From Atractiella rhizophila (lineage: Eukaryota), in assembly GCA_021432655.1 (NCBI GenBank), contig MU271401.1:1-64000 (forward strand): 64,000 bases of DNA, in the 5' to 3' direction. The position numbers and the translations under genes were made by a program. A model generated the notes under the pieces. The model saw nothing but the letters and a program-made list of their open reading frames with translations, searched no databases and was not told the DNA's origin. Position 1 is the first letter of the stretch, and every line of letters starts with the position of its first letter. Shown one piece after another: positions 1 through 10,769 of this stretch.

Positions 1-323
1 TACTCTAAGGTCACCTCCACTACTCTCCGATCTATATATACAAGCGGAATACCACTGCCACAGAGTGTAGAGGAGAGTAGATGAAACATGTAAGAGAACT
101 AAAAGGGGGAAGTGATAGTGGGATTACGCGGAATTAATAAGAGGAGAGGAGAATAGGCACAAATGAGCTAAGTGGCGATGGGAGACGCAGAATGGCGACG
201 GTTCGCAGATTTGTATAGAATACAAACGGGCGAACAGGCGCCGATTCGGGGGGAACACAAATGGGCAATAGGAGATGCAATCCAGCAAACGGGCGCCGAT
301 TTGCGTAAGATGCAAACCTGACA
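1..323 (-). mobile_element. LTR of the gypsy family at 4784-5122, inverted, truncated by the window edge
   Basis: Reverse complement starts TGTCAGGTTTGCATCTTACGC and aligns with indels to 4784-5010; ends exactly at ...AAACCTGACA (323), abutting the copia LTR remnant. Confidence 0.85.
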
Positions 324-2080
324 GTCTCACATCTCATATCTTCCCGCACTTAGCCAATGCCGTCCGCTCATATATACCTCCTCTTCGTTCACTGGATTCC
401 CCATCGTCTTCCACCATCGTGAACGATTGGGAAATCCAGGTTTGTCTGCTCCTACATAGTATTTTGCATTGCTGATCGTCTTCCACCATCGTGAACGATT
501 GGGAAATCCAGATTCTATCAGGTTATGAGCCCAAACCTTCGAATCTGAGGCATCTCTCTTTCAGGTGGCAAATCAATCTTTTTCATTGTTATTTCCTGAT
601 CGGCCGACGTATCTTCTGGAGTCCGGAGCGACTACAAATCTCGTACATCTCATCTATTCGTTGTATGTCGCATAGGATGTGAATCAGGAGCAACCAAGAT
701 CACCTTCAACCTCCTCCATCTCTTCCAGACGTTTTGGAGTCCCTCCAAGGTCTCAACATCGAAGAACCAAGCACTCCCACGCTATCTACGGCCGATCTGC
801 TCAGCTCACCACATTCTTTCTTCATACGCGACAACTCTTTCTATCTTCCCATCGAAATCGACGAAGTGCCCATCATGCCTCCAGACAATATCAAGATTTT
901 GGAGAGACTCACTCGAGTGAATTGGTAGTCATAGTCAGAAGAGGCGAAAGAATGCTTGAAGACGATGATGCTTTGGGGATATATTGCGGAGAACACCAAA
1001 GGGGAAGGCCTAATGGCGCGACCGGTTAGGGAGCTTTACGAGGCGGCTGGACCGTCTCAGGCTATTCTTTTCAGCAAGGAGAATTCCGCCTGGCTGAAAG
1101 GGGATTGGGCTACCAGTGCATTCTTAAAGGCTTCGGTTGACGATGCTTTGAAAGAAGTTATTAAGGCGAAAGAGTTGGAATGGAGTGACGAAGAGAATAC
1201 CGCACATATGATCTGGAAGCTTCTTCAGTCCAAATGCCGGCTGAAGGTACCCTTCAAGCTAAAACAGCATGGTGAGCTTTCCTTTACACTACCTCCCAAC
1301 CCATCTCCTCGTCCTCGTATGTGGATTGGGCCAACTCCATTCGACAATCGTGGGTAGAGATCGAACGATATGCCGGCAAGATTATGGGACCCGACAAGAT
1401 TATCTCCTTACATCTACTTTTGATGATTCCCAAGTCTCTCAGCATGAAATGGGAGACATCATTCAAGGTTCTGCAGGAACGACATGGACATTTACATCCC
1501 AGAACCCCTTTCAAAATTGAGCACATCTCCCCTGACACCATCGTTGAAGAAATTAGCGGGATCGTTGGAAGGGAATCTCTTGCTCAAGATGGAGACAGAG
1601 CGTTTCTTATGCAACGATCTGATGGGACCGGTGGGAGTATCAACAATGTTCATCCCAGTCATTGTGGTTTCGTCGAGGCTAGTTCTAGATTCAGTGGGAC
1701 TTGAGATCACTGCAAAAACAAAGGACACTAGAAAGCTGAATGTTTCCAACTCCGTCCCGAAAAACTCGAACAAATTCCGTGCTAAGAAGGCTTCCTCATC
1801 TCTCGCCGCCAATGTTGCTGTTTCTTCGGACACGCCTATCACAGTTTCTATGCCTCCTTCCTTTCTCTCAGGATTGAACGTGCTCCCTACCAATGCCAAT
1901 TGGGGTGATAGGCATCAGGATGTCAGTGGCAGCTTTGGGACACAAGAAGTCTCTTACTTCGCCCGCTACGTTGGTGAACATCAGCTGGGTTGGAATGGGG
2001 ATATCAATGCACATTCTCTTGATATCAATGGTGCAGAGCCCGCTCATGCCCTCATTTTGCTCGACTCAGCCGTCCGACAT
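324..2080 (+). mobile_element. Degenerate Ty1/copia 5' part: LTR remnant (324-520), PBS, gag and aspartic protease remnant
   Basis: ...TATCA followed by GGTTATGAGCCC at 521-532 (copia-type primer-binding site); gag-like 'TAHMIWKLLQ'; CCHC knuckle T*DHCKNKGH*KAEC at 1699-1743 with stop codons; protease-like 'ILLDSAVRH' near 2051-2080. Confidence 0.75.
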
Positions 2081-2347
2081 GAGGTCCCCATTCCCAAAGT
2101 CGTGTCTCTATCTCCTGCCTTGTCTGTCCTCGGCGACATCGCTCTCTTCACGGCTCAAATCAAAGGTGTCTCGACTCAGGCTGTTCTAAGCCCACAGAGT
2201 TTCGGAGGGAACTCATCCACAATTTCAGAGAGGAATCGGGCAATGAGACTGTCGAAGTTGGCAACGGAGTCAAAGTACCTATCCTGGGTCACGGCGAAAT
2301 GTTCTATTCTACTCTCACCACAGACGGTTCTCCATGTGTCCTTCTTC

Positions 2348-4177
2348 TGATCTTGACAGACCACAAAAACCTTGAATATTTCAGGATGCCACAAAAGTTA
2401 AATTGGCGACAAGCGCGGTGGATCACTGAACTTGCATCTTTCAACTTCACGCTTTTACACCGTCCTGGACGAAACTCCGCAAAACCAGATGCGCTCAGTC
2501 GGTGACCAGATCACAAACCGGCGCCTTGCGACAATTTCGACGTAGTATTGCACCTAGAACGTTTTTTCAACACAGATCGTATCACCATCAACGCGACTGG
2601 GAGCGCAGTTGCGCTCACAAGACAAATGTCAGAGTTGAGTATACTGGAACATGTGAAAAAGGTACCCGAACGGGAAGAACAAGGTACCCGAACGGGAAGA
2701 ACAAGTAGTCAAAGCCTTGAGAGAGATCCTAGACGAACCAGTCGACGCAATTCGCCGACGGGAGTGGCAAGAAGTCGATGGCGCTGTCTATTTTGGTGGA
2801 AAACTCTACATTCCCTGCGACGAGGAAATTCGCCGCTCGATTTTGCAAGACCCGCACGATTCACAAATCGCCGGTCATCCAGCAGTAAAATCGCCGATGG
2901 CTCTCGTAAAAAGGTACTATTGGTGGCCAGGTGTGGCGCATTGCGTTCGCCGCTATGTCGGCGCCTGCCACACTTGCCACAGAACGAAAAACTTTCTTCT
3001 CCACCTGCCAGGTTTTTGCAACCAAATGACATTCCCATACGTCGATGGCAAATTGTCAGCATGGACTTGGTTGGACCACTCCCAGAATCTGGGGGGTTTG
3101 ACATGATTTTCGTCATAGTAGACAGACTCTCAAAACGTACCCATCTCATCCCCACCCATTCGACAATGGATGCAGAAGGCCTTGCAAGACTTTTTCGTGA
3201 TCACGTATGGAAGTTACATGGACTTTCGATGTCGCAATTTTCGATCAAGGCAAAGAGTTTGTGTCCAAATTCACATCCACGCTTTTTCGCCTATTAGGTA
3301 TCAAAGGTTCACCATTGACAGCCTATCACCCACAAAGTGATGGTCAGACTGAACGCATGAACCAAGAGGTTGAACAATATTTGCGCATTTTCTGCAACCA
3401 CCTTCAAGATAATTGGGTGGAAGGACTTCCCAACGCAGAATTTGCGCTCAACAATCGTATCAGTTTGGCGACGGGTGTAACTCCATTTTCGCTCGATTGC
3501 AGCCAACATCCCCGCATGGCCTTTGAACCCATCTCCGACGAGGACGTTCTCGCAGCGGTGCAATTCGTCGAAAAGATGCAAATCGCCGACCGGGAAGCAC
3601 AAGCAGCACTCGAGCAAGCAGCAGATCTCATGGCAAAACATTATGACAGAGAACGCACACTGGCGCCCGAATATCACGTCGGCGATTTCGTCTGGTTGAG
3701 TGCGAAAAACATCAAATCGATGAGACCTGTTAAAAAGTTAGATGACAAATGGCATGGCCTATTTCATGTTTTGCAAGTTTGGGTCTCGTCAACCTTAAAC
3801 TCGAGTTGCCATCCTCATGGAAGATACATCTAGTGTTCCATGTGGGTCTAATACAAAAAGTCAACGAAGACGACATCCCTGGCAGAGTCCAGTTGCCCAA
3901 ACCACCTCCGGAATTGGTGAATGGAATTGAAGAATGGGAAGTGGAAAAATTTGTTGATGGAAAATGGTTCGGTACCCGAAATAGAGTTTTCAAATATTGC
4001 GTTCGATACAAAGGGTATTCACCATCTGAAGACGAGTGGATCAATATCGCGGATCTAGAAAATTCACAGGATGCTATAAAAGACTATCACACTGCACATC
4101 CTCTTGCAGTTCGTCCCGATTCCATACCAAACTCCGCCAAAAATCGCCCAAATGCGCGTTCTCGTAACCTTCGATGA
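2348..4177 (+). mobile_element. Ty3/gypsy chromovirus pol remnant: RNase H end, integrase, chromodomain; frameshifted
   Basis: 'TDHKNLEYF...RQARW...[14 protein letters not shown]' (RNase H end), 'HDSQIAGHP...YWWP...CHTC' (HHCC), 'VSMDLVGPLP', 'AYHPQSDGQTERMNQ' (integrase core), 'EWEVEKFVD...YCVRYKGYSPSEDEW' (chromodomain); stops, frameshifts and a 22-bp tandem duplication at 2659-2702. Confidence 0.93.
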
Positions 4178-4196
4178 AAACGCACTGGAGGGTTTT

Positions 4197-4588
4197 CCTC
4201 ACTTTAAGGGGGTCCAATACCCCTATATGCCTTGCCGGGTGAAATCCTAGTCTTTGATACTTAGGTCAAGGCAAGGCGCCGACTTGCTCCTCAACGGACA
4301 AGTCGGCGACTTGGTCGTGGGTGAGTCCATTCGTCGCCCGTCAAAGACGAATGCTCATTGCGTTCTCGCACCATCACCAATGTCGCATTTACGAAAATTG
4401 CCCTCAATCGCGAGGTCCCCTCCCCTCACTTTAAGAGGTCCTACTCCTCTACACGCCTCGCTGGGTGAATCCCTAATCACATTGTTGAACATAGATCTAG
4501 GTGAGGCGCCGATCTGTCCCTCAACGGGCAGATCGGCGACCAGTTCGTTGGTGAGTTGTCCAGCCCGTTTTCGCAGGATGCACACTTA
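4197..4588 (+). repeat. Two diverged tandem modules (period ~227 nt) with conserved stem-loops in the gypsy 3' UTR
   Basis: Anchors CCTCACTTTAAG, GGGTGAA, AGGCGCCGA, CCTCAACGG, TCGGCGAC, GGTGAGT and GCCCGT occur in the same order at 4197-4357 and 4424-4588. Confidence 0.85.
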
Positions 4589-4783
4589 GTACACCAAAAC
4601 AACACCTGGTCAACTTTTAAAAAAAATTCCTCAAATTGCGAGGTACACAATGTCTCTTTACTCCGACAATTTCATCTCTGTCCGAGCGACAGCTGGTACT
4701 TCAGGCACTTTTCGCAAAAATTGGCAAACCTCACAAAGCAGAAGTTTCTGCTTACTGCAAGCACCACAGAAACTGGGGGGTGT

Positions 4784-5122
4784 TGTCAGGTTTGCATCTT
4801 ACGCAGATCGGCGCCCGTTCGCCACTCTGCGTCTCCCGTCGCCTATTTGCACCTACATCACCACTTAGCCCAATTGTGCCTATCCTCCTCTTATTAACTC
4901 CGCGTAATCCCACTTTTAGTTCTCTTGCATGTTTCATCTGATCTCCTCTACACTCTGTGGCAGTGTTATTCCACTTGTATATATAGATCAGAGGTGACCT
5001 TAGAGGATTCTCTAGGTTTATCTCCACTACAGGTTACTCCTCATGTCATATCATGCCCTTAGGTTTATCTCCACTACAGACACATCGCCCATTGGCGACC
5101 GCACATAGTGTCAGCCCTAACA
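4784..5122 (+). mobile_element. 3' LTR of the gypsy element (339 bp)
   Basis: TGTCAGG...CCTAACA imperfect terminal inverted repeats, preceded by a purine-rich GAAACTGGGGGG PPT-like tract; TATATATA near 4978; two further copies in the window. Confidence 0.85.
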
Positions 5123-5264
5123 GTTTCTAAGTGTTGGATATGTTCCTCCATTGATAGCAAATCACTGACGGATAGTGAATCATGTGTCTCCATATCTCCC
5201 CAGACTTCTGACATTTTGCTAACTTCTTAAAATTTGATTTTGAAGATATGAGAAAATATTCTTC

Positions 5265-5686
5265 TGTTTGAGCTGACAATATGTACAGTCGCTGATGAAC
5301 GATGTGTCTGTAGTAGAGATAAACCTAAGAGATATCATGACATGAAGTGACTAACCTATAGTAGAGATAAACCTAAGAGAATACTCTAGGGTCATCACCA
5401 CTACATCTCGATTTATATATATGTGTAGGAGCACTGCCATGAACTGTAAAGTATGTCATATGAAACATGTAAGATAACTAAATCGGGAAGGCAACAAAGG
5501 AAATAGTCAGAAATAAGTTATAAGAAGGGGAATAATATGAATGGATGTCAAGATAAAAACAGTTGTGATGCAGATTAGCAAAATGAATAGGACTACTGAG
5601 CAGCGAAGAGTACAGGAAGAGGTAAAGCGGGAACTGGTAAGAACGCTGACTAGCGAATTAGGAGAGTAAGTCATGTGACCTGGACA
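5265..5686 (-). mobile_element. Older, diverged inverted LTR related to 4784-5122
   Basis: 5265 TGTTTGAGCTGACAATATGTACAGTCGC...GATGTGTCTGTAG matches the reverse complement of 5074-5122 with many transitions; ends CCTGGACA. No TSD seen. Confidence 0.7.
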
Positions 5687-5963: not shown

Positions 5964-8900
5964 TCAATTTATATGGAGACTGTGAAGTGAAATGTACCAA
6001 AACGATCCAATAATTCCTTGCCATCTTGAAGCCTTTTTCGTAGCAGGTTCTTTTGTCACACTCATAGCTCTCTCTGCCTGTCCAATTCTGTCAAGCAAAT
6101 TATCACAGTCTTCAATGTCTGAAGCTGCACAGCATTCCATGTAAAGCCAGTGAGCCTTCTCAATTTCCTCCCTTGCTTCAGCGTACCTGGACAGTATGAA
6201 GAGTTGTTGTGCCATTGTCTCTCTACAGATGGCCTCCGTATAGCCACCCACTGTCTGACTCAAAGTGATCGCTTCCTTGTAAAGCCCAATCGCCTTTGTG
6301 AACTGAGAATCCTGAATGAAAATGGAAGCATAACTGTAAAGACAATTGAGTTGACCTCCCACGTCTTCGAGGGCTAAATAGAGCTGCTTTGCCTCTTCAA
6401 ACTGTTTCAGTGCTTCCTCATTCTTCCCACGACGCTGCTCGATCTCCCCCATGTTGCGAATGCAGTGGGCCAGGCCTTGCTGATCTCCCACCAGCAGATA
6501 CAGCTGCTTTGCCTCTTCAAACTGTTTCAGTGCTTCCTCATTCTTCCCACGATGGTGCTCAATCTCCCCATGCTGCGAATGCAGTGGGCCAGGCCTTGCC
6601 GATCTTCCACCACCAGATACAGCTGCTTTGCCTCCTCAAACTGTTTCAGTGCTTCCTCATTCTTCCCACGATGCTGCTCGATCACCCCCATGCTGTAAAT
6701 GCAGTGGGCCAGGTCTCGCCGATCTTCCACCAGCAGATACAGCTGCTTTGCCTCCTCAAACTGTTTCAGTGCTTCCTCATTCTTCCCACGATGCTGCTCG
6801 ATCACCCCCATGATGTAAATGCAGTGGGCCAGGCCTTGCCGATCTTCCACCAGCAGATACAGCTGCTTTGCCTCTTCAAACTGTTTCAGTGCTTCCTCAT
6901 TCTTCCCATGGAGCTGCTCGATCTTCCCCATGCTGCGGATGCAGTGGGCCAGGCCTTGCTGATCTTCCACCACCAGATACAGCTGCTTTGCCTCCTCAAA
7001 CTGTTTCAGTGCATCCTCATTCTTCCCACGACGCTGCTCGATCTGCCCCATGCTGTGAATGCAGTGGGCCAGGCCTTGCCGATCTTCCACCACCAGATAC
7101 AGCTGCTTTGCCTCCTCAAACTGTTTCAGGCTTCCTCATTCTTCCCATGACGCTGCTCGATCTCCCCCATGCTGTGGATGCAGTGGGCCAGGCCTCGCCG
7201 ATCTTCCACCACCAGATACAGCTGCTTTGCCTCCTCAAACTGTTTCAGTGCTTCCTCATTCTTCCCACGATGCTGCTCGATCTCCCCCATGCTGTGAATG
7301 CAGTGTGCCAGGCCACGCTGATCTTCCACCAGCAGATACAGCTGCTTTGCCTCCTCAAACTGTTTCAGTGCTTCCTCATTCTTCCCACGATGCTGCTCGA
7401 TCTCCCCCATGCTGCGGAATGCAGTGGGCCAGGCCTCGCCGATCTTCCACCACCAGATACAGCTGCTTTGCCTCCTCAAACTGTTTCAGTGCTTCCTCAT
7501 TCTTCCCACGGAGCTGCTCGATCTTCCCCATGCTGCGGATGCAGTGGGCCAGGCCTTGCCAATCTTCCACCACCACATACAGCTGCTTTGCCTCCTCGAA
7601 CTGTTTCAGTGCATCCTCATTCTTCCCACGACGCTGCTCGATCAGCCCCATGTTGTAAATGCAATGGGCCAGGCCTCGCCGATCTTCCACCACTGCATAC
7701 AGCTGCTTTGCCTCTTCAAACTGTTTCAATGCTTCCTCATTCTTCCCACGATGCTTTTCGATCTCCCCCATGTTGCGAATGCAGTGGGCCAGGCCTTGCC
7801 GATCTTCCACCAGCAGATACAGCTGCTTTGCCTCCTCAAACTGTTTCAGTGCATCCTCATCCTTCCCACGATGCTGCTTGATCTTCCCCACCCCGAGAAT
7901 GCAGTGGGCCAGGCCTTGCTGATCTCCCACCACCAGATACAGCTGCTTTGCCTCTTCAAACTGTTTCAGTGCTTCCTCATTCTTCCCACGATGGTGCTCA
8001 ATCTCCCCCATGCTGTGAATGCAGTGGGCCAGGCCTTGCTGATCTTCCACCACCACATACAGCTGCTTTGCCTCCTCAAATTGTTTCAGTGCGTCCTCAT
8101 TCTTCCCACGGAGCTGCTCGATCTCCCCCATGCTGTGAATGCAGTGGGCCAGGCCTTGCCGATCTTCCACCACTAGATACAGCTGCTTTGCCTCCTCAAA
8201 CTGTTTCAGTGCCTGTTGTGGGTTCCCTTTCTGTTGGAAACATAACCCAAGAACCCTGTTCAATTCGGCTGTGATTGCTGGAGGTGATGTAAGCTTCTTG
8301 CAGGATAAAGCACTCTGGATCAATGCCACTGAGAGGAGCCTTTGAAGATATAGAAATCTCCAAATTTTGACGATGAAATTGAATCCCATTGTTGGATCTT
8401 TGAGATGTTTGAAGGCAGCTAGAAGTACGTGTTCAAGGTTTGGAAAATCGTTGCGAAAAGTCAACAGTCCGATCCGTTCAGCATCATCTTTGAAACGTCG
8501 AAAACATTTACGAGCCTTCTCAATCAGACCTTCAGTTAACGGTTCGAGCGATAAAGTGGTGACTTTGAAAGGAGGAAGAGGACCCAACACCAAACGGTTC
8601 ATATATTCACGAATCGGGGCCAGCATGCGCAATCGTGAGGTGTGTGTAAGAGTATCATCCACATTTTCAGCAAGTCCGACTTTTAAGATTGAGGTGACGA
8701 GCACAGCAGAATCCTCTGCATGGGGAAGGCTGGAGTTATTGCCAAAGGCGATAATGTCGTCAGCCAGAAGACCATCAGGGGTCCAAGAAAGAAGGGCAAG
8801 GATAAAAGCACTGAGGTCCTCGTTCTTCTTGAGCAGAGGCGAATCGAACGAGAAGGAGATCGAAGTTGCCAGAGTGTGCGTCTCTTCGCTGTCTTCATTC

Positions 8901-10769
8901 CAGAGTACGTTCGTTTTCTTTGCCTCCCATTCACCCACCAAAACCCTTAGCTCCCTGGTGGATTCTTCATTCGCACGAAGAATGAAGAGCTTGATAGACA
9001 AGGCATGACGATCCAGCTTGGCGACAATGTCCTCGACTAGCTGGTCATCATCCTGGCGATATCCTTTTCCGCCCACGTACATATATTCAAACATACCAAG
9101 CGCGCCGACGTCGCTCAAGCCTCCAATCGCCAGTTCTTGAAATCTCACACCTTTCGAGTTCACACGCTCAACTTGATGGCCTCGATGTACTACAACGAGA
9201 ATAGAACCAGAAGGACATTGTCTGGAAAAGAAAGCCTGGAAGAATGGCTGTAGGTTATTCTTGTCAGACCGTGCGGGGGTCTCAAAATTATCGAGGATAA
9301 GGAGACACTTGTGAGTATTGAAATATTTTGCGACAGCAGTAAGCTCATCTTCGCCAGGCGGAGGAGCTAATCCAAAAACTTCCTTGCAAAGGTTGGTCGA
9401 GAGAGAGGAGAAGTCGGAGAAAGCGTCGCAGCGTGCCCAAAAAGCGAAAGTCTGCTTCCTTGCCATCCGTGGCGGTCCTGAATGCGTTTTTGATTTTGTC
9501 TGCATGAAGGACTTCCAGTGCAACGGTAGATTTGCCGTTCCCTGCGCCACCAATGATAGCAAGGTGCTTCTTGCCGGTAAGGATGAATTCTATCGCTTTC
9601 TTGACCTCCTCTTCTCTTCCGTAACAAGCCGCCGCGAGGAGGTAAAGCGACCTTCCTGTGCACTGCGACACGATCTTTATGGTCTACATAGCGGAACGTT
9701 AGCATACAATTACCAATGACGAAGAATATACCTTTCGCCAGCGATTGAGCAACGCTCAACACTTCATGCTTCATCGCTTCCATGTAAGCCATCGTACCTC
9801 CTACGGCATCATTCTTTCGCCCCACTCCTGCCACTTGAAATCTCCAAATGTATCGACCGAGAAACGATGGTAACAATGCCCCGTCCTCCGCTCTTGCATC
9901 ATCACCTTCACCTCGTTCGAAACCCTTGAGCAATCCATGACTATTGCCTCCAATGCTCGCTCAACATCATCTCGAGTGTGGCCCAACTTGATGGCAGGCG
10001 TAATGCCAGAACCAAGGGACACAAGACAGGCGATCTCAATACTGGATCCCCAAATTCGCTTCGCTTCTTCAACAGCTATCGCTGTAGGATTGTCGCGACC
10101 TACGTTAACGTAACCAGTGGAATCCATGTTGATGGGAGGAAAGAAGGGAGGACGGGCAGCGGTCGCTCTTGCAGCTTCCCAGACCTTGTACGTGGGAGCA
10201 GGGAAAAACGGAGAGGATGAAGCACCAAGAATATCGTAGGTGCGCATCTCCGTGGAAACGGCGACGTTGGCCTCGTAGGTAGAAACTACAAAAGTTTTGC
10301 ACCTATCATGCCAGGAGGCATCTTTCATAGAAAGCGATTTCGCAGAAGCGTGAGAAGAGTTCATATGCCGCTGGATGATAGCAATGAAAGTTTCTTCAAG
10401 CTTTTCCGCCGAGTAAGCGTACTCGCCACTGGAGATCGAGTTATTTTCTAGAAAAACTTTCTGTGTGATCTCTTCATATGCCGCAATGCATTGGCGAACG
10501 GTCATGCCCAGCCTCCCAAGCATAAGTGCAATCCATCCGCCAGTGGAAGTTCCACAAATGAGGTCAAATATATCGCAAGGACGGAGGTCCTCCCCCTCCG
10601 GCACATCGAGAAGTTGTGCAGCTTGAAGCATGATCTGTTCCAGCATGTATGGAGCGGAAAAGGAACGGATGCCTCCATTATCGATGCAAAGGATCCGCAA
10701 TCCCTTGGGATTCACTTTCTTGATGTTCTCGGAGACCTTAAAGATCTTGCTAGGATGATCAGTAGACAT
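5964..10769 (-). CDS. Fungal NLR-like protein: patatin-like domain + NB-ARC/STAND NTPase + TPR repeats (frameshifted in this assembly)
   Basis: Patatin motifs 'LCIDNGGIR', 'FDLICGTSTGG', 'WEAARATAA'; intron ~9684-9731; 'CYGREEEV', Walker A 'GGAGNGKST', Walker B 'LLILDNFE', 'RLRMLAPIREY'; C-terminal TPR-like 40-aa repeats. About six single-base shifts are needed to join the ORFs. Confidence 0.9.
6381..8212 (-). repeat. Tandem array of 120-bp (40-aa) TPR-coding units, 15 complete units plus a partial one
   Basis: CTGCTTTGCCTCYTCRAAYTGTTTCA recurs 16 times at ~120-bp spacing; consensus ALKQFEEAKQLYLVVEDRQGLAHCIxxMGxIEQHRGKNEE. Confidence 0.97.

What the first reader, a model, noticed from the sequence alone, without database searches (positions are those of the whole stretch)
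4197..4588. Tandem structured-RNA module with compensatory base changes in a chromovirus 3' UTR
Seen: two ~160-nt modules between the chromodomain stop and the PPT differ a lot in sequence but keep the same stems. P1 is AGGGG/CCCCT (4207-4224) versus AGAGG/CCTCT (4434-4450). P2 is GCCTTGCC/GGCAAGGC (4229-4277) versus GCCTCGCT/GGTGAGGC with G-U pairs (4455-4507), both enclosing GGGTGAA. P3 is CGCCGACTTG-c-TCC[TCAAC]GGA-CAAGTCGGCG (4277-4308) versus CGCCGATCTG-t-CCC[TCAAC]GGG-CAGATCGGCG (4507-4538), with the same bulge position and loop. A fourth hairpin follows GGTGAGT and carries GCCCGT in both; in module 2 GCCCGTT could alternatively pair with AACGGGC. Inference: selection acted on RNA or ssDNA fold, suggesting a cis-acting element (packaging/dimerisation, translation, nuclease block or ribozyme). 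I recognise no hammerhead core and cannot assign a known family.
Basis: partly seen in the sequence, partly recalled or inferred. Interest (0 to 1): 0.8.

Follow-up and report, generated by a model that had tools for sequence, protein, structure and literature searches.

The report
Duplicated folded RNA in fungal retrotransposon tail
A fungal retrotransposon carries, between its last gene and its terminal repeat, two diverged copies of a stretch that would fold into the same set of RNA hairpins, which suggests an undescribed control signal of the element's RNA whose job is still unknown.

Summary
Two tandem units (period about 227 nt, 4197-4423 and 4424-4650) lie between the stop of a chromodomain-bearing integrase ORF (4177) and the PPT/LTR junction (4784). 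Their 130-nt cores are 86% identical. All 25 pairs of P1-P3 form in both, five through changes on both sides and two as G-U. Random placement of the same 32 substitutions keeps all pairs in 19 of 200,000 trials. All 12 substitutions at paired sites are transitions, against 9 of 20 at unpaired sites (p=0.0013). The linkers are no more alike than shuffled sequence.

I add a long-range helix P5, with two more compensatory pairs, that closes a second domain. I also add an unproven alternative closing helix P0. Contigs of one run show many diverged copies of the element, and the listed variants at P1-P3 and P5 sites keep pairing as G-U on the plus strand.

There is no Rfam match, and no homologue turned up in the metagenome, viral or prokaryote collections, so the covariation rests on two paralogues plus within-family variants. 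My best reading is a plus-strand cis-acting RNA element of a fungal chromovirus. Its function is untested; by position it resembles the retroviral CTE and DR elements. The main rival is hairpin-repairing template switching.

The parts
3749..4177 (+). C-terminal ORF piece of the integrase with chromodomain; stop codon TGA at 4175-4177
   Evidence: Pfam Chromo E=4.5e-07, 30.1 bits (cut-off 25.1); SH3_Tf2-1 weak. The upstream pieces 2548-3297 and 3207-3833 give weak rve and SH3_Tf2-1 matches in other frames, so the copy is frameshifted.
4147..4165 (+). Weak third copy of the unit-boundary motif (AAAAT.GCC..AAT.GCG), inside the end of the ORF
   Evidence: Read by eye against 4395-4416 and 4622-4645. 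Not tested statistically.
4197..4326 (+). Core 1: leader CCTCACTTTAA, P1 (4207-4224), P2 (4229-4277), P3 (4278-4307, bulge at 4287, loop TCAAC), tail ending GGTGAGT
   Evidence: The covariance model R1 scores it 160 bits.
4308..4384 (+). Domain 2 of unit 1. P5 pairs 4308-4315 with 4376-4384 (one bulge). It encloses P6 (4317-4320 with 4371-4374), the P4 hairpin (4328-4335 with 4346-4353) and a small hairpin (4359-4370).
   Evidence: MFE pair list. The same fold appears within the whole 3' UTR.
4395..4416 (+). Unit-boundary motif AAAATTGCCCTCAATCGCGAGG (possible CCTC/GAGG mini-hairpin)
   Evidence: Repeated at 4622-4645.
4424..4556 (+). Core 2: same leader, P1 (4434-4450), P2 (4455-4507, two G-U pairs), P3 (4508-4537, bulge at 4517, loop TCAAC), tail ending GGTGAGT
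   Evidence: R1 scores it 161 bits.
4538..4611 (+). Domain 2 of unit 2. P5 pairs 4538-4543 with 4606-4611. It encloses P6 (4548-4553 with 4592-4597) and an irregular apical hairpin.
   Evidence: The 6-nt complement occurs in 166 of 20,000 shuffled linkers, and in 25 of 20,000 within 10 nt of the place expected from unit 1.
4622..4645 (+). Second full copy of the unit-boundary motif
4646..4767 (+). Unique remainder of the 3' UTR
   Evidence: Not repeated elsewhere in the window.
4768..4783 (+). PPT-like purine/G-rich run (AGAAACTGGGGGG..) directly before the LTR
   Evidence: Its position next to the LTR start is supported.
4784..5000 (+). 3' LTR (start TGTCAGG; TATA-like run near 4978). The U3 motif GCAGATCGGCGCCCGTTCG at 4802-4820 resembles the P3 3' arm plus tail of module 2. 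The LTR's far end is not defined.
   Evidence: About 80% identity to an inverted LTR copy at 1-323. Thirteen X1 contigs diverge upstream of 4784 (table 7). Motif similarity scores 28 against a shuffle maximum of 26.

Best explanation
The 3' UTR of this fungal chromodomain Ty3/gypsy element holds an old tandem duplication of a unit of about 228 nt.

Each unit folds, on the plus strand (the genomic or messenger RNA), into two parts. The first is three adjacent hairpins: P1, then P2 directly abutting P3. The second is a domain closed by the long-range helix P5. A possible alternative closing helix, P0 (CUCACU with GGUGAG), would turn the core into a four-way junction.

Pairing, rather than sequence, has been kept since the duplication, so selection acted on the fold. 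This is shown statistically but on few sequences.

Inferred only: the units are cis-acting elements of the full-length RNA that present invariant single-stranded motifs (loop UCAAC, GGGUGAA, leader CCUCACUUUAA) to a protein, either the element's own Gag/NC or a host factor. By position (last ORF to PPT) and by duplication, the most likely role is post-transcriptional handling of the unspliced RNA: export, stability or packaging, as with the RSV direct repeats and the MPMV CTE.

My odds: a plus-strand structure under selection, about 0.65. Given that, export, stability or packaging about 0.4, a reverse-transcription role about 0.3, and something else about 0.3.
For: 1. 25 of 25 pairs are kept in both modules, with 5 double changes and 2 G-U pairs. 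Slid controls give 30-46% paired.
2. Neutral simulation: all pairs are kept in 19 of 200,000 trials. Conditional on 12 transitions falling at paired columns, the figure is 750 of 200,000.
3. Substitution rates are equal at paired sites (12 of 50) and unpaired sites (20 of 79). But 12 of 12 paired-site changes are transitions, against 9 of 20 at unpaired sites (Fisher p=0.0013). That is the signature of stepwise change through G-U.
4. Cores are 86% identical, while the linkers are at shuffle level: 45 of 73 identical, with a shuffled mean of 42 and maximum of 50.
5. P5 forms at the same aligned columns (116-121) in both units, with U-A to C-G and U-A to A-U changes. The chance of a complement near the expected place is 25 of 20,000.
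6. Family variants at P1-P3 and P5 sites all keep pairing: 4298 A>G (U-A to U-G), 4502 (G-U/G-C), 4512 A>G (A-U to G-U), 4518 with 4528 (C-G/U-A), and 4542 A>G (A-U to G-U with U4607). All 5 one-sided changes are G-U on the plus strand and would be A-C on the minus strand (p=0.03). On the minus strand, module 2 loses P2.
7. The region is not coding. Differences fall 12/10/10 over the three codon positions, and the 112-aa ORF finds 0 proteins.
8. Contigs of run X1, of a soil run and of a root run bridge both modules, and a second organism (X10) holds both (table 8).
Against: Only two paralogous modules from one degraded copy could be aligned. No homologue outside the family was obtained.

The variant table shows 40 rows and leaves 70 unshown. 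It gives no linkage between sites, so breaking variants may be hidden. One minor variant (4577 G>A, one contig) would break a pair in the apical part of domain 2.

The window's own copy is dead: it is frameshifted, and no PR or RT was detected. Yet it carries a 'compensatory' C-G at 4518/4528. Selection on this copy cannot explain that, unless the change was inherited from an active sub-lineage.

P0 is invariant, so it has no covariation. In whole-unit folds it costs 4-7 kcal/mol and has a pair probability near 0.

There is no evidence on expression and no functional test. The analogy to CTE and DR rests on position alone.
Confidence: 0.5

Rival explanations
1. There is no function. A tandem duplication arose in the recombination-prone 3' UTR, and its inverted repeats are created and re-perfected by template switching (fold-back copying by reverse transcriptase or a DNA polymerase). 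That process produces 'compensatory' changes in a single mutational step without selection on RNA.
For: Template switching can create and maintain perfect stems and multibase compensatory changes (PMC8794818, abstract and introduction read). Tandem repeats in Ty3/gypsy 3' UTRs are common and are ascribed to aberrant strand transfer (PMC7004042, Discussion passage). The P3 changes CT>TC and AG>GA are adjacent dinucleotides, as a single switch would give. The dead window copy carries its own double change at 4518/4528.
Against: At least four or five separate helices (P1, P2, lower P3, upper P3, P5) would each need their own event.

All 12 changes at paired sites of the core are transitions (p=0.0013), and G-U intermediates are seen in the family at 4298, 4512 and 4542. 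Copying a complement gives Watson-Crick pairs and has no bias toward transitions.

It also does not explain why the cores stay 86% identical while the linkers have randomised.
Confidence: 0.2
2. It is a reverse-transcription signal rather than an export or packaging signal. Examples would be the 3' part of a bipartite primer-binding site or cyclisation partner (as in Ty3 and Ty1), or structure that positions RNase H and RT at the nearby PPT or guides strand transfer.
For: Ty3 has PBS segments in its 3' UTR, and both Ty1 and Ty3 need an interaction between the RNA ends (PMC4974528 and PMC11381356, passages). The modules lie 140-590 nt upstream of the PPT. The 5' arm of module 2's P3 is a perfect 12-nt complement of a U3 motif at 4804-4815.
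Against: No complementarity longer than 8 nt exists between the 3' UTR and the presumptive 5' region 323-700. That region may not be this element's true 5' UTR.

The U3 similarity is marginal (score 28 against a shuffle maximum of 26) and is absent for the second LTR copy.

No tRNA gene lies in the window and no genome is held, so tRNA complementarity could not be tested.
Confidence: 0.15
3. It is a DNA-level element. The P3 arms are an inverted pair of a protein-binding motif (GGCGCCGAT / ATCGGCGCC) that is also repeated in U3, so the module acts as an enhancer-like or chromatin-targeting site in double-stranded DNA.
For: The motif recurs in both LTR copies, at 237-245, 292-300 and 4807-4815. 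Sirevirus LTRs carry palindromic repeated motifs with a CGG-CCG core that are proposed as transcriptional elements (PMC2829016, passages).
Against: The motif's count in the window is at chance: 12 observed against 10.8 expected.

A protein site would conserve the sequence of each half-site. Here the arms change together while staying complementary.

P3 has an asymmetric bulge. G-U pairs occur on one strand only. P1, P2 and P5 are not explained.
Confidence: 0.08
4. It is a self-cleaving ribozyme or an exonuclease-resistant RNA (xrRNA-like), duplicated as in flavivirus 3' UTRs.
For: It is a compact multi-helix junction with invariant joining segments, duplicated in tandem in a 3' UTR.
Against: The permissive Rfam scan of 3500-5500 (E up to 10) gave no match in the modules to any of 4227 families. 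No recognisable catalytic core or ring-closing pseudoknot was found by eye.
Confidence: 0.05

Closest known systems
Rous sarcoma / avian leukosis virus direct repeat (DR) elements and the MPMV constitutive transport element (CTE)
   Same: Structured cis-acting RNA located between the last ORF and the 3' LTR. The DR is present as two direct repeats of about 115 nt and affects cytoplasmic accumulation, stability and packaging of unspliced RNA. The CTE is a stem-loop that recruits an export factor (PMC3856414, passages read).
   Different: There is no sequence or structure match. The Rfam scan was negative; that Rfam holds models of these elements is my recollection, not checked here. The host is a fungus and the element a chromovirus. 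The fold has three hairpins plus a second domain. The function is untested.
Hypervariable tandem repeats in the 3' UTR of plant Ty3/gypsy elements (Tat/Ogre, Retand)
   Same: Tandem repeats between pol and the PPT/3' LTR, thought to arise by aberrant strand transfer during replication (PMC7004042, Discussion passage; PMC11963269, abstract).
   Different: Those arrays are variable, often many-copy, and are described as raw material for satellites, with no conserved fold claimed. Here there are just two old units whose sequence has drifted, with linkers at random level, while base pairing is kept.
Duplicated structured elements of flavivirus 3' UTRs (xrRNA and dumbbell pairs)
   Same: Tandem paralogous RNA structures in a 3' UTR that keep their fold while the sequence diverges (recalled knowledge; PMC12081666 seen only as a search listing).
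   Different: No Rfam match. No evidence of an exonuclease-blocking pseudoknot. This is a retroelement, not an RNA virus.
Conserved non-coding motifs of Sireviruses (multiple PPTs, an inverted repeat beside the PPT, palindromic LTR motifs)
   Same: Conserved motifs with dyad symmetry around the pol-to-3'-LTR junction of an LTR retrotransposon (PMC2829016, abstract and passages).
   Different: Those are Ty1/copia elements of plants. The motifs are short DNA palindromes and PPT copies, not 130-nt multi-helix modules with compensatory changes.
Ty3 / Ty1 3'-terminal cis elements (bipartite PBS, CYC3)
   Same: 3'-terminal RNA segments of LTR retrotransposons needed for priming or cyclisation (PMC4974528 and PMC11381356, passages).
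   Different: Those act by pairing with tRNA or with the 5' end, which could not be shown here. They are short linear segments, not duplicated hairpin modules.

Membership tests
Chromovirus (chromodomain-bearing Ty3/gypsy LTR retrotransposon): the setting | [quoted passage not shown] | tested here: met
   Pfam Chromo at 30.1 bits, above the 25.1 cut-off, at residues 63-114 of ORF 3749-4177. The 120 listed relatives are almost all annotated with rve, SH3_Tf2-1 and Chromo, and most with RT and RNase H as well.
Chromovirus (chromodomain-bearing Ty3/gypsy LTR retrotransposon): the setting | Intact gag-PR-RT-RNaseH-IN polyprotein | tested here: not met
   The integrase is split over three frames, with only sub-threshold rve and SH3 matches. 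Pfam gave no match for the four upstream ORFs scanned (679-1029, 956-1357, 1484-2350), and the stretch 2351-2547 was not scanned. The copy is degraded. It is still a member by homology: 43-57% amino-acid identity to full-length fungal elements.
Chromovirus (chromodomain-bearing Ty3/gypsy LTR retrotransposon): the setting | PPT directly upstream of a TG-starting 3' LTR | tested here: met
   A G-rich run at 4768-4783 precedes TGTCAGG at 4784. A second LTR copy lies at 1-323 (inverted, about 80% identity). Thirteen X1 contigs diverge upstream of 4784.
Any described RNA family (Rfam 15, including ribozymes, xrRNAs, tRNA-like and retroviral elements) | Covariance-model match | tested here: not met
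   cmscan of 3500-5500 at E up to 10 gave one match only: MIR2646 at 5025-5363, 56 bits against a gathering score of 245, outside the modules. ARAGORN found 0 tRNA-like genes.
Retroviral post-transcriptional elements (RSV DR, MPMV CTE) | Location between the last ORF and the 3' LTR; structured; repeated | tested here: met
   The units lie at 4197-4650, between the stop at 4177 and the LTR at 4784. Folds are, and the two units.
Retroviral post-transcriptional elements (RSV DR, MPMV CTE) | Promotes export, stability or packaging of unspliced RNA; binds an export factor or Gag | not testable with these tools
   No RNA run holds the stretch.
Hypervariable 3'-UTR tandem repeats of plant Ty3/gypsy elements | Tandem array between pol and the PPT | tested here: met
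   Two units plus a partial third boundary motif. TRF does not report it at default score, because the linkers have diverged.
Hypervariable 3'-UTR tandem repeats of plant Ty3/gypsy elements | Copy number and monomer sequence vary freely among copies | tested here: inconclusive
   Several contigs bridge unit 1 into unit 2 (X1 records 4-7, X3 record 14, X4 record 15). One X1 contig skips 4457-4784. Contigs cannot give copy-number spectra.
Ty3-type bipartite PBS / cyclisation element | Complementarity to the primer tRNA or to the 5' leader | tested here: inconclusive
   The longest complement to 323-700 is 8 nt, which is chance level. The tRNA test could not be done: there is no tRNA in the window and no genome is held.

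The most novel reading that the evidence does not exclude
The units are a previously undescribed family of modular RNA elements of fungal chromoviruses. Each has a three-hairpin core whose conserved GGUGAG tail can close either on the module's own leader (P0, giving a four-way junction) or on the downstream linker (P6/P5). In other words, it would be a two-state switch, present in two diverged copies, that decides the fate of the full-length RNA (translation versus packaging, or nuclear export). That would be a retrotransposon counterpart of the retroviral CTE and DR elements in fungi.
Probability: 0.2. Interest if true: 0.65.

Novelty: new variant of a known kind. Interest (0 to 1): 0.45.

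Why it matters
Cis-acting RNA signals of LTR retrotransposons are known in detail for only a few models (Ty1, Ty3, Tf1). For Ty3, the sequences needed for localisation and packaging are still 'not precisely defined' (PMC11381356). No paper describing a conserved, duplicated, multi-helix element in a fungal chromovirus 3' UTR turned up in my searches.

If the fold is functional, it offers a defined handle for finding which protein selects, exports or packages the genomic RNA of this large group of fungal elements. It would also be a natural example of structure kept after duplication while the sequence drifts.

If it is only template-switch repair, it is instead a clean example of how replication through reverse transcription can mimic RNA covariation. 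That would be a caution for covariation-based RNA discovery in repeats.

Tried and rejected
**Searches for homologues**
blastn showed that the 13 loci with any match at E<=1e-3 match over 24-36 nt at the pattern itself and the rest not at all, so these are chance hits in GC-rich DNA. R1 scored at most 24 bits on the 13 of 120 loci I passed to it, against 160 for the true modules. That spent the single metagenome scan. A pattern anchored on the AT-containing invariant blocks would have been better.
- Viral-contig pattern scans: 0 hits.
- Viral-contig protein scans: three distant chromoviruses (41-49% amino-acid identity, L121-L123) without the module.
- Prokaryote genome scans: 0 hits, then one chance hit (L124) with no R1 match.
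- Own-genome search: no genome is held.
- Earlier findings of this scan: nothing relevant.

**Coding and RNA-family tests**
- Protein search with the 112-aa ORF across the modules: 0 hits. The coding reading is rejected, together with the 12/10/10 codon-position spread.
- tRNA-like reading: ARAGORN found 0, and Rfam found none.
- The MIR2646 hit at 5025-5363 is an inverted pair of LTR fragments, not a microRNA gene.

**Expression**
- No RNA holder was listed for the stretch, so nothing can be said about expression.

**Structure details**
- 5'-3' complementarity: nothing above chance. An RNAduplex version of that test timed out.
- P0 as the established closing helix is rejected. It is the MFE only when the core is folded alone and is disfavoured in the whole unit.
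- GGTGAGT as a 5' splice-site or U1-binding mimic was considered. I found nothing to test it with, and the motif is accounted for by P0 or P6 pairing.
Full report
**Setting**

The window opens inside a nest of LTR-retrotransposon sequence. The ORF piece 3749-4177 carries a Pfam Chromo domain (30.1 bits, cut-off 25.1) and the end of an SH3_Tf2-1 domain. The pieces 2548-3297 and 3207-3833, in other frames, give weak rve and SH3_Tf2-1 matches. This is therefore the frameshifted 3' end of a chromodomain integrase.

With the 208-aa integrase piece, the best named relatives are full-length RT-RNaseH-IN-Chromo polyproteins of fungi. Most are Basidiomycota (Ustilago, Lyophyllum, Armillaria, Trametes, Pleurotus) at 43-53% identity. 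The best unnamed ones reach 57%.

The stop codon is at 4175-4177. A G-rich PPT-like run ends at 4783, and an LTR starts at 4784 (TGTCAGG). Three results support the LTR start. A second, inverted LTR copy lies at 1-323 with about 80% identity. Thirteen contigs of run X1 match from 4784 onward but differ upstream (table 7). The motif itself is visible. The 3' UTR is thus 4178-4783, 606 nt. No whole genome is held for this window.

**The observation**

The two modules align at 78% over about 210 nt and at 86% over the 130-nt cores, 4197-4326 and 4424-4556. MFE folds of each module on its own predict P1, P2 and P3 (z = -6.0 and -3.6).

For the 25 pairs of P1-P3, 50 of 50 cells are standard pairs. 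Five pairs changed on both sides: one in P1, one in P2 and three in P3. Two pairs in P2 became G-U. With the 3' partners slid by 1-3 columns, only 30-46% of cells pair and 0-1 pairs show a double change. The P3 pattern occurs only at these two places in the window. A covariance model of the cores (R1) finds only the two modules in the window, at 160 and 161 bits.

**Is it more than chance?**

The cores differ by 32 substitutions (21 transitions, 11 transversions).
- Placing that many substitutions at random on module 1 keeps all 25 pairs in 19 of 200,000 trials. Conditional on 12 transitions falling on paired columns, the figure is 750 of 200,000.
- Substitution density is the same at paired columns (12 of 50) and unpaired columns (20 of 79), so the stems are not simply 'more conserved'.
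- All 12 changes at paired columns are transitions, against 9 of 20 at unpaired columns (Fisher p=0.0013). That is what stepwise change through G-U intermediates predicts.
- The differences spread 12/10/10 over codon positions, and the 112-aa ORF across the modules has no relative among 5.8 billion proteins. The region is not coding.
- The linkers between cores (4327-4399 and 4557-4627) are 45 of 73 identical, which is the level of shuffled sequence (mean 42, maximum 50). A short boundary motif recurs at 4395-4416 and 4622-4645, with a weaker copy at 4147-4165. The duplication is therefore old. The cores and the boundary motif were kept while the rest drifted.

(a) In folds of whole units, the tail after P3 pairs about 73-76 nt downstream. 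In unit 1 this is 4308-4315 with 4376-4384, with one bulge. In unit 2 it is 4538-4543 with 4606-4611. This helix, P5, uses the same aligned columns (116-121) in both units and differs by U-A to C-G and U-A to A-U. A shuffled linker holds the needed 6-mer in 166 of 20,000 trials, and within 10 nt of the place expected from unit 1 in 25 of 20,000. Inside P5, the conserved UGGUG pairs with a CACCA in each linker (P6).

(b) When a core is folded alone, or the two cores by RNAalifold, the invariant leader CUCACU pairs with the invariant GGUGAG of the tail (P0). That closes P1-P3 into a four-way junction. P0 has no covariation, costs 4-7 kcal/mol in whole-unit folds, and has a pair probability near zero there. 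I report it only as a possible alternative state. It does explain why both invariant blocks are complementary.

**The family**

Run X1 (organism A) gave 853 contig pieces on 3900-4900 at 80% likeness or more: 172 at 99% or above, 325 at 95-99%, 274 at 90-95%, and 82 below 90%. The element is therefore a diverged repeat family. Run X10 (organism B) gave 4 pieces, a soil run 2 and a root run 1.

Pieces bridge unit 1 into unit 2 (X1 records 4-7; X3 4209-4499 with 7 differences; X4 4301-4450 with 1 difference). The tandem layout is thus not peculiar to this copy.

The table of other letters lists 40 rows, with 70 more not shown. It reveals that several features of module 2 are private to the window's copy.
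- At 4502 the family reads C, so P2's G-T is G-C elsewhere.
- At 4476 and 4495 the family reads G, as in module 1.

Other listed variants at P1-P3 and P5 sites keep pairing: 4298 A>G (U-A to U-G, about 60% of depth), 4512 A>G (A-U to G-U, nearly all copies) and 4542 A>G (A-U to G-U with U4607 in P5). Variants at 4218 (P1 loop), 4287 (P3 bulge), 4319, 4454 and 4546 lie at unpaired sites. One minor variant (4577 G>A, one contig) would break a pair in the uncertain tip of domain 2.

Including the module-to-module C-G to U-G change, all 5 one-sided changes give G-U on the plus strand. They would give A-C on the minus strand (p=0.03). Folding the minus strand keeps module 1's stems but loses P2 of module 2. 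This points to the plus strand as the strand that folds: the transcript or plus-strand DNA.

**Known families**

A permissive Rfam scan of 3500-5500 (E up to 10, 4227 families) has no match in the modules. The only hit, MIR2646 at 5025-5363 (56 bits against a gathering score of 245), is an inverted pair of LTR fragments. ARAGORN finds nothing.

No homologue outside the family could be obtained.
- Viral contigs gave 0 pattern hits and three distant chromoviruses without the module.
- Prokaryote genomes gave 0 hits and then one chance hit.

All covariation evidence therefore comes from two paralogues plus an incomplete variant list. This is the main weakness.

**How it most likely works**

Shown: a multi-helix fold is kept on the plus strand in two old paralogues and across family variants.

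Inferred: it is a cis-acting element of the full-length RNA. Its position (last ORF to PPT), its duplication, and its invariant single-stranded motifs (loop UCAAC, GGGUGAA, leader) fit a protein-recruiting post-transcriptional element. The RSV direct repeats are 115 nt, occur twice, and have pleiotropic effects on cytoplasmic accumulation, stability and packaging. The MPMV CTE is a comparable case (PMC3856414, passages).

A role in reverse transcription is the next option. It would be of the Ty3 type (3' PBS segments) or the Ty1 type (cyclisation) (PMC4974528, PMC11381356). I found no 5'-3' complement above chance and could not test tRNA complementarity. A 19-nt U3 motif (4802-4820) resembles the P3 3' arm plus tail of module 2, and so complements its 5' arm over 12 nt. 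The score is marginal (28 against a shuffle maximum of 26) and is absent for the other LTR copy.

**Rivals**

The strongest rival is that no RNA function exists. Tandem repeats are common in Ty3/gypsy 3' UTRs and are ascribed to aberrant strand transfer (PMC7004042; PMC11963269, abstract). Template switching can create and re-perfect hairpins, giving compensatory changes in one step (PMC8794818). In its favour are the adjacent CT>TC / AG>GA change in P3 and the double change carried by this dead copy. Against it are four points: the need for separate events in four or five helices, the transition-only spectrum at paired sites, the G-U intermediates, and the contrast between kept cores and randomised linkers.

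A DNA-level protein-site reading is weak. The GGCGCCGAT motif is at chance frequency in the window (12 observed, 10.8 expected), the arms co-vary, P3 has a bulge, and the G-U pairs are strand-specific. Ribozyme and xrRNA readings have no support.

**Novelty and verdict**

Structured cis elements and tandem repeats in retroelement 3' UTRs are known kinds. This fold matches no described family. My literature searches (listings and the passages cited) turned up no description of such an element in fungal chromoviruses. Subscription-journal papers are not covered by that library.

I rate it a new variant of a known kind, of moderate interest. It still rests on few sequences, on a degraded copy, and on no functional or expression data.

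Noticed in passing
window 6378-8212 (array); ORF 7376-9562 minus strand: A 120-nt tandem array (15.3 copies, 91% matches) is the TPR-repeat region of a NACHT-TPR (NLR-like) gene on the minus strand. Pfam gives TPR_12 at E=1e-40, TPR_10, and a weak NACHT match. Highly similar in-frame repeats of this sort are typical of fungal NLR-type genes (recalled).
   Followed up: partly
window 1-323 (minus strand); 4915-5123 versus 5264-5482: A second LTR copy lies inverted at the window start, about 80% identical to the LTR at 4784. An inverted pair of LTR fragments (76% identity) lies downstream of the 3' LTR. That inverted pair is what Rfam scores as 'MIR2646' (56 bits against a gathering score of 245). 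The region is a nest of insertions.
   Followed up: partly
window 393-442 and 465-514: Two 50-nt direct repeats (90% identity, 72 nt apart) lie upstream of the gag-like ORFs. By eye each is an imperfect hairpin (GGATTCCCCATCG...CGATTGGGAAATCC). This may be a structured 5' leader element, but whether 323-700 belongs to the same element is unclear.
   Followed up: no
window 4802-4820; minus-strand LTR copy at about 225-300: U3 carries one to three copies of a motif (A/G)ATCGGCGCC(C/T)GTT(C/T)GC. It resembles the P3 3' arm plus tail of module 2. The run X1 contigs show variable inserts of similar sequence at 4841-4853 (table 5c). This suggests sub-repeat expansion in U3 and possible common origin with the modules. 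The significance is marginal.
   Followed up: partly
window 2655-2705: A 22-nt unit is repeated 2.3 times (96% matches) inside the integrase N-terminal region. This is one of the lesions that break the reading frame of this copy.
   Followed up: no
window 3900-4900 against run X1: Among places where X1 contigs differ from the window, transitions dominate: A>G 19, C>T 21, G>A 20 and T>C 18, against 15 transversions. This is compatible with deamination or RIP-like decay of copies. It was not tested for dinucleotide context.
   Followed up: no
window 1484-2350: A 288-aa ORF lies between the gag-like region and the RNase H / integrase tail. It has no Pfam match, and no protease or RT domain was detected in the ORFs scanned. 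The copy appears to lack or to have replaced its PR-RT region.
   Followed up: no
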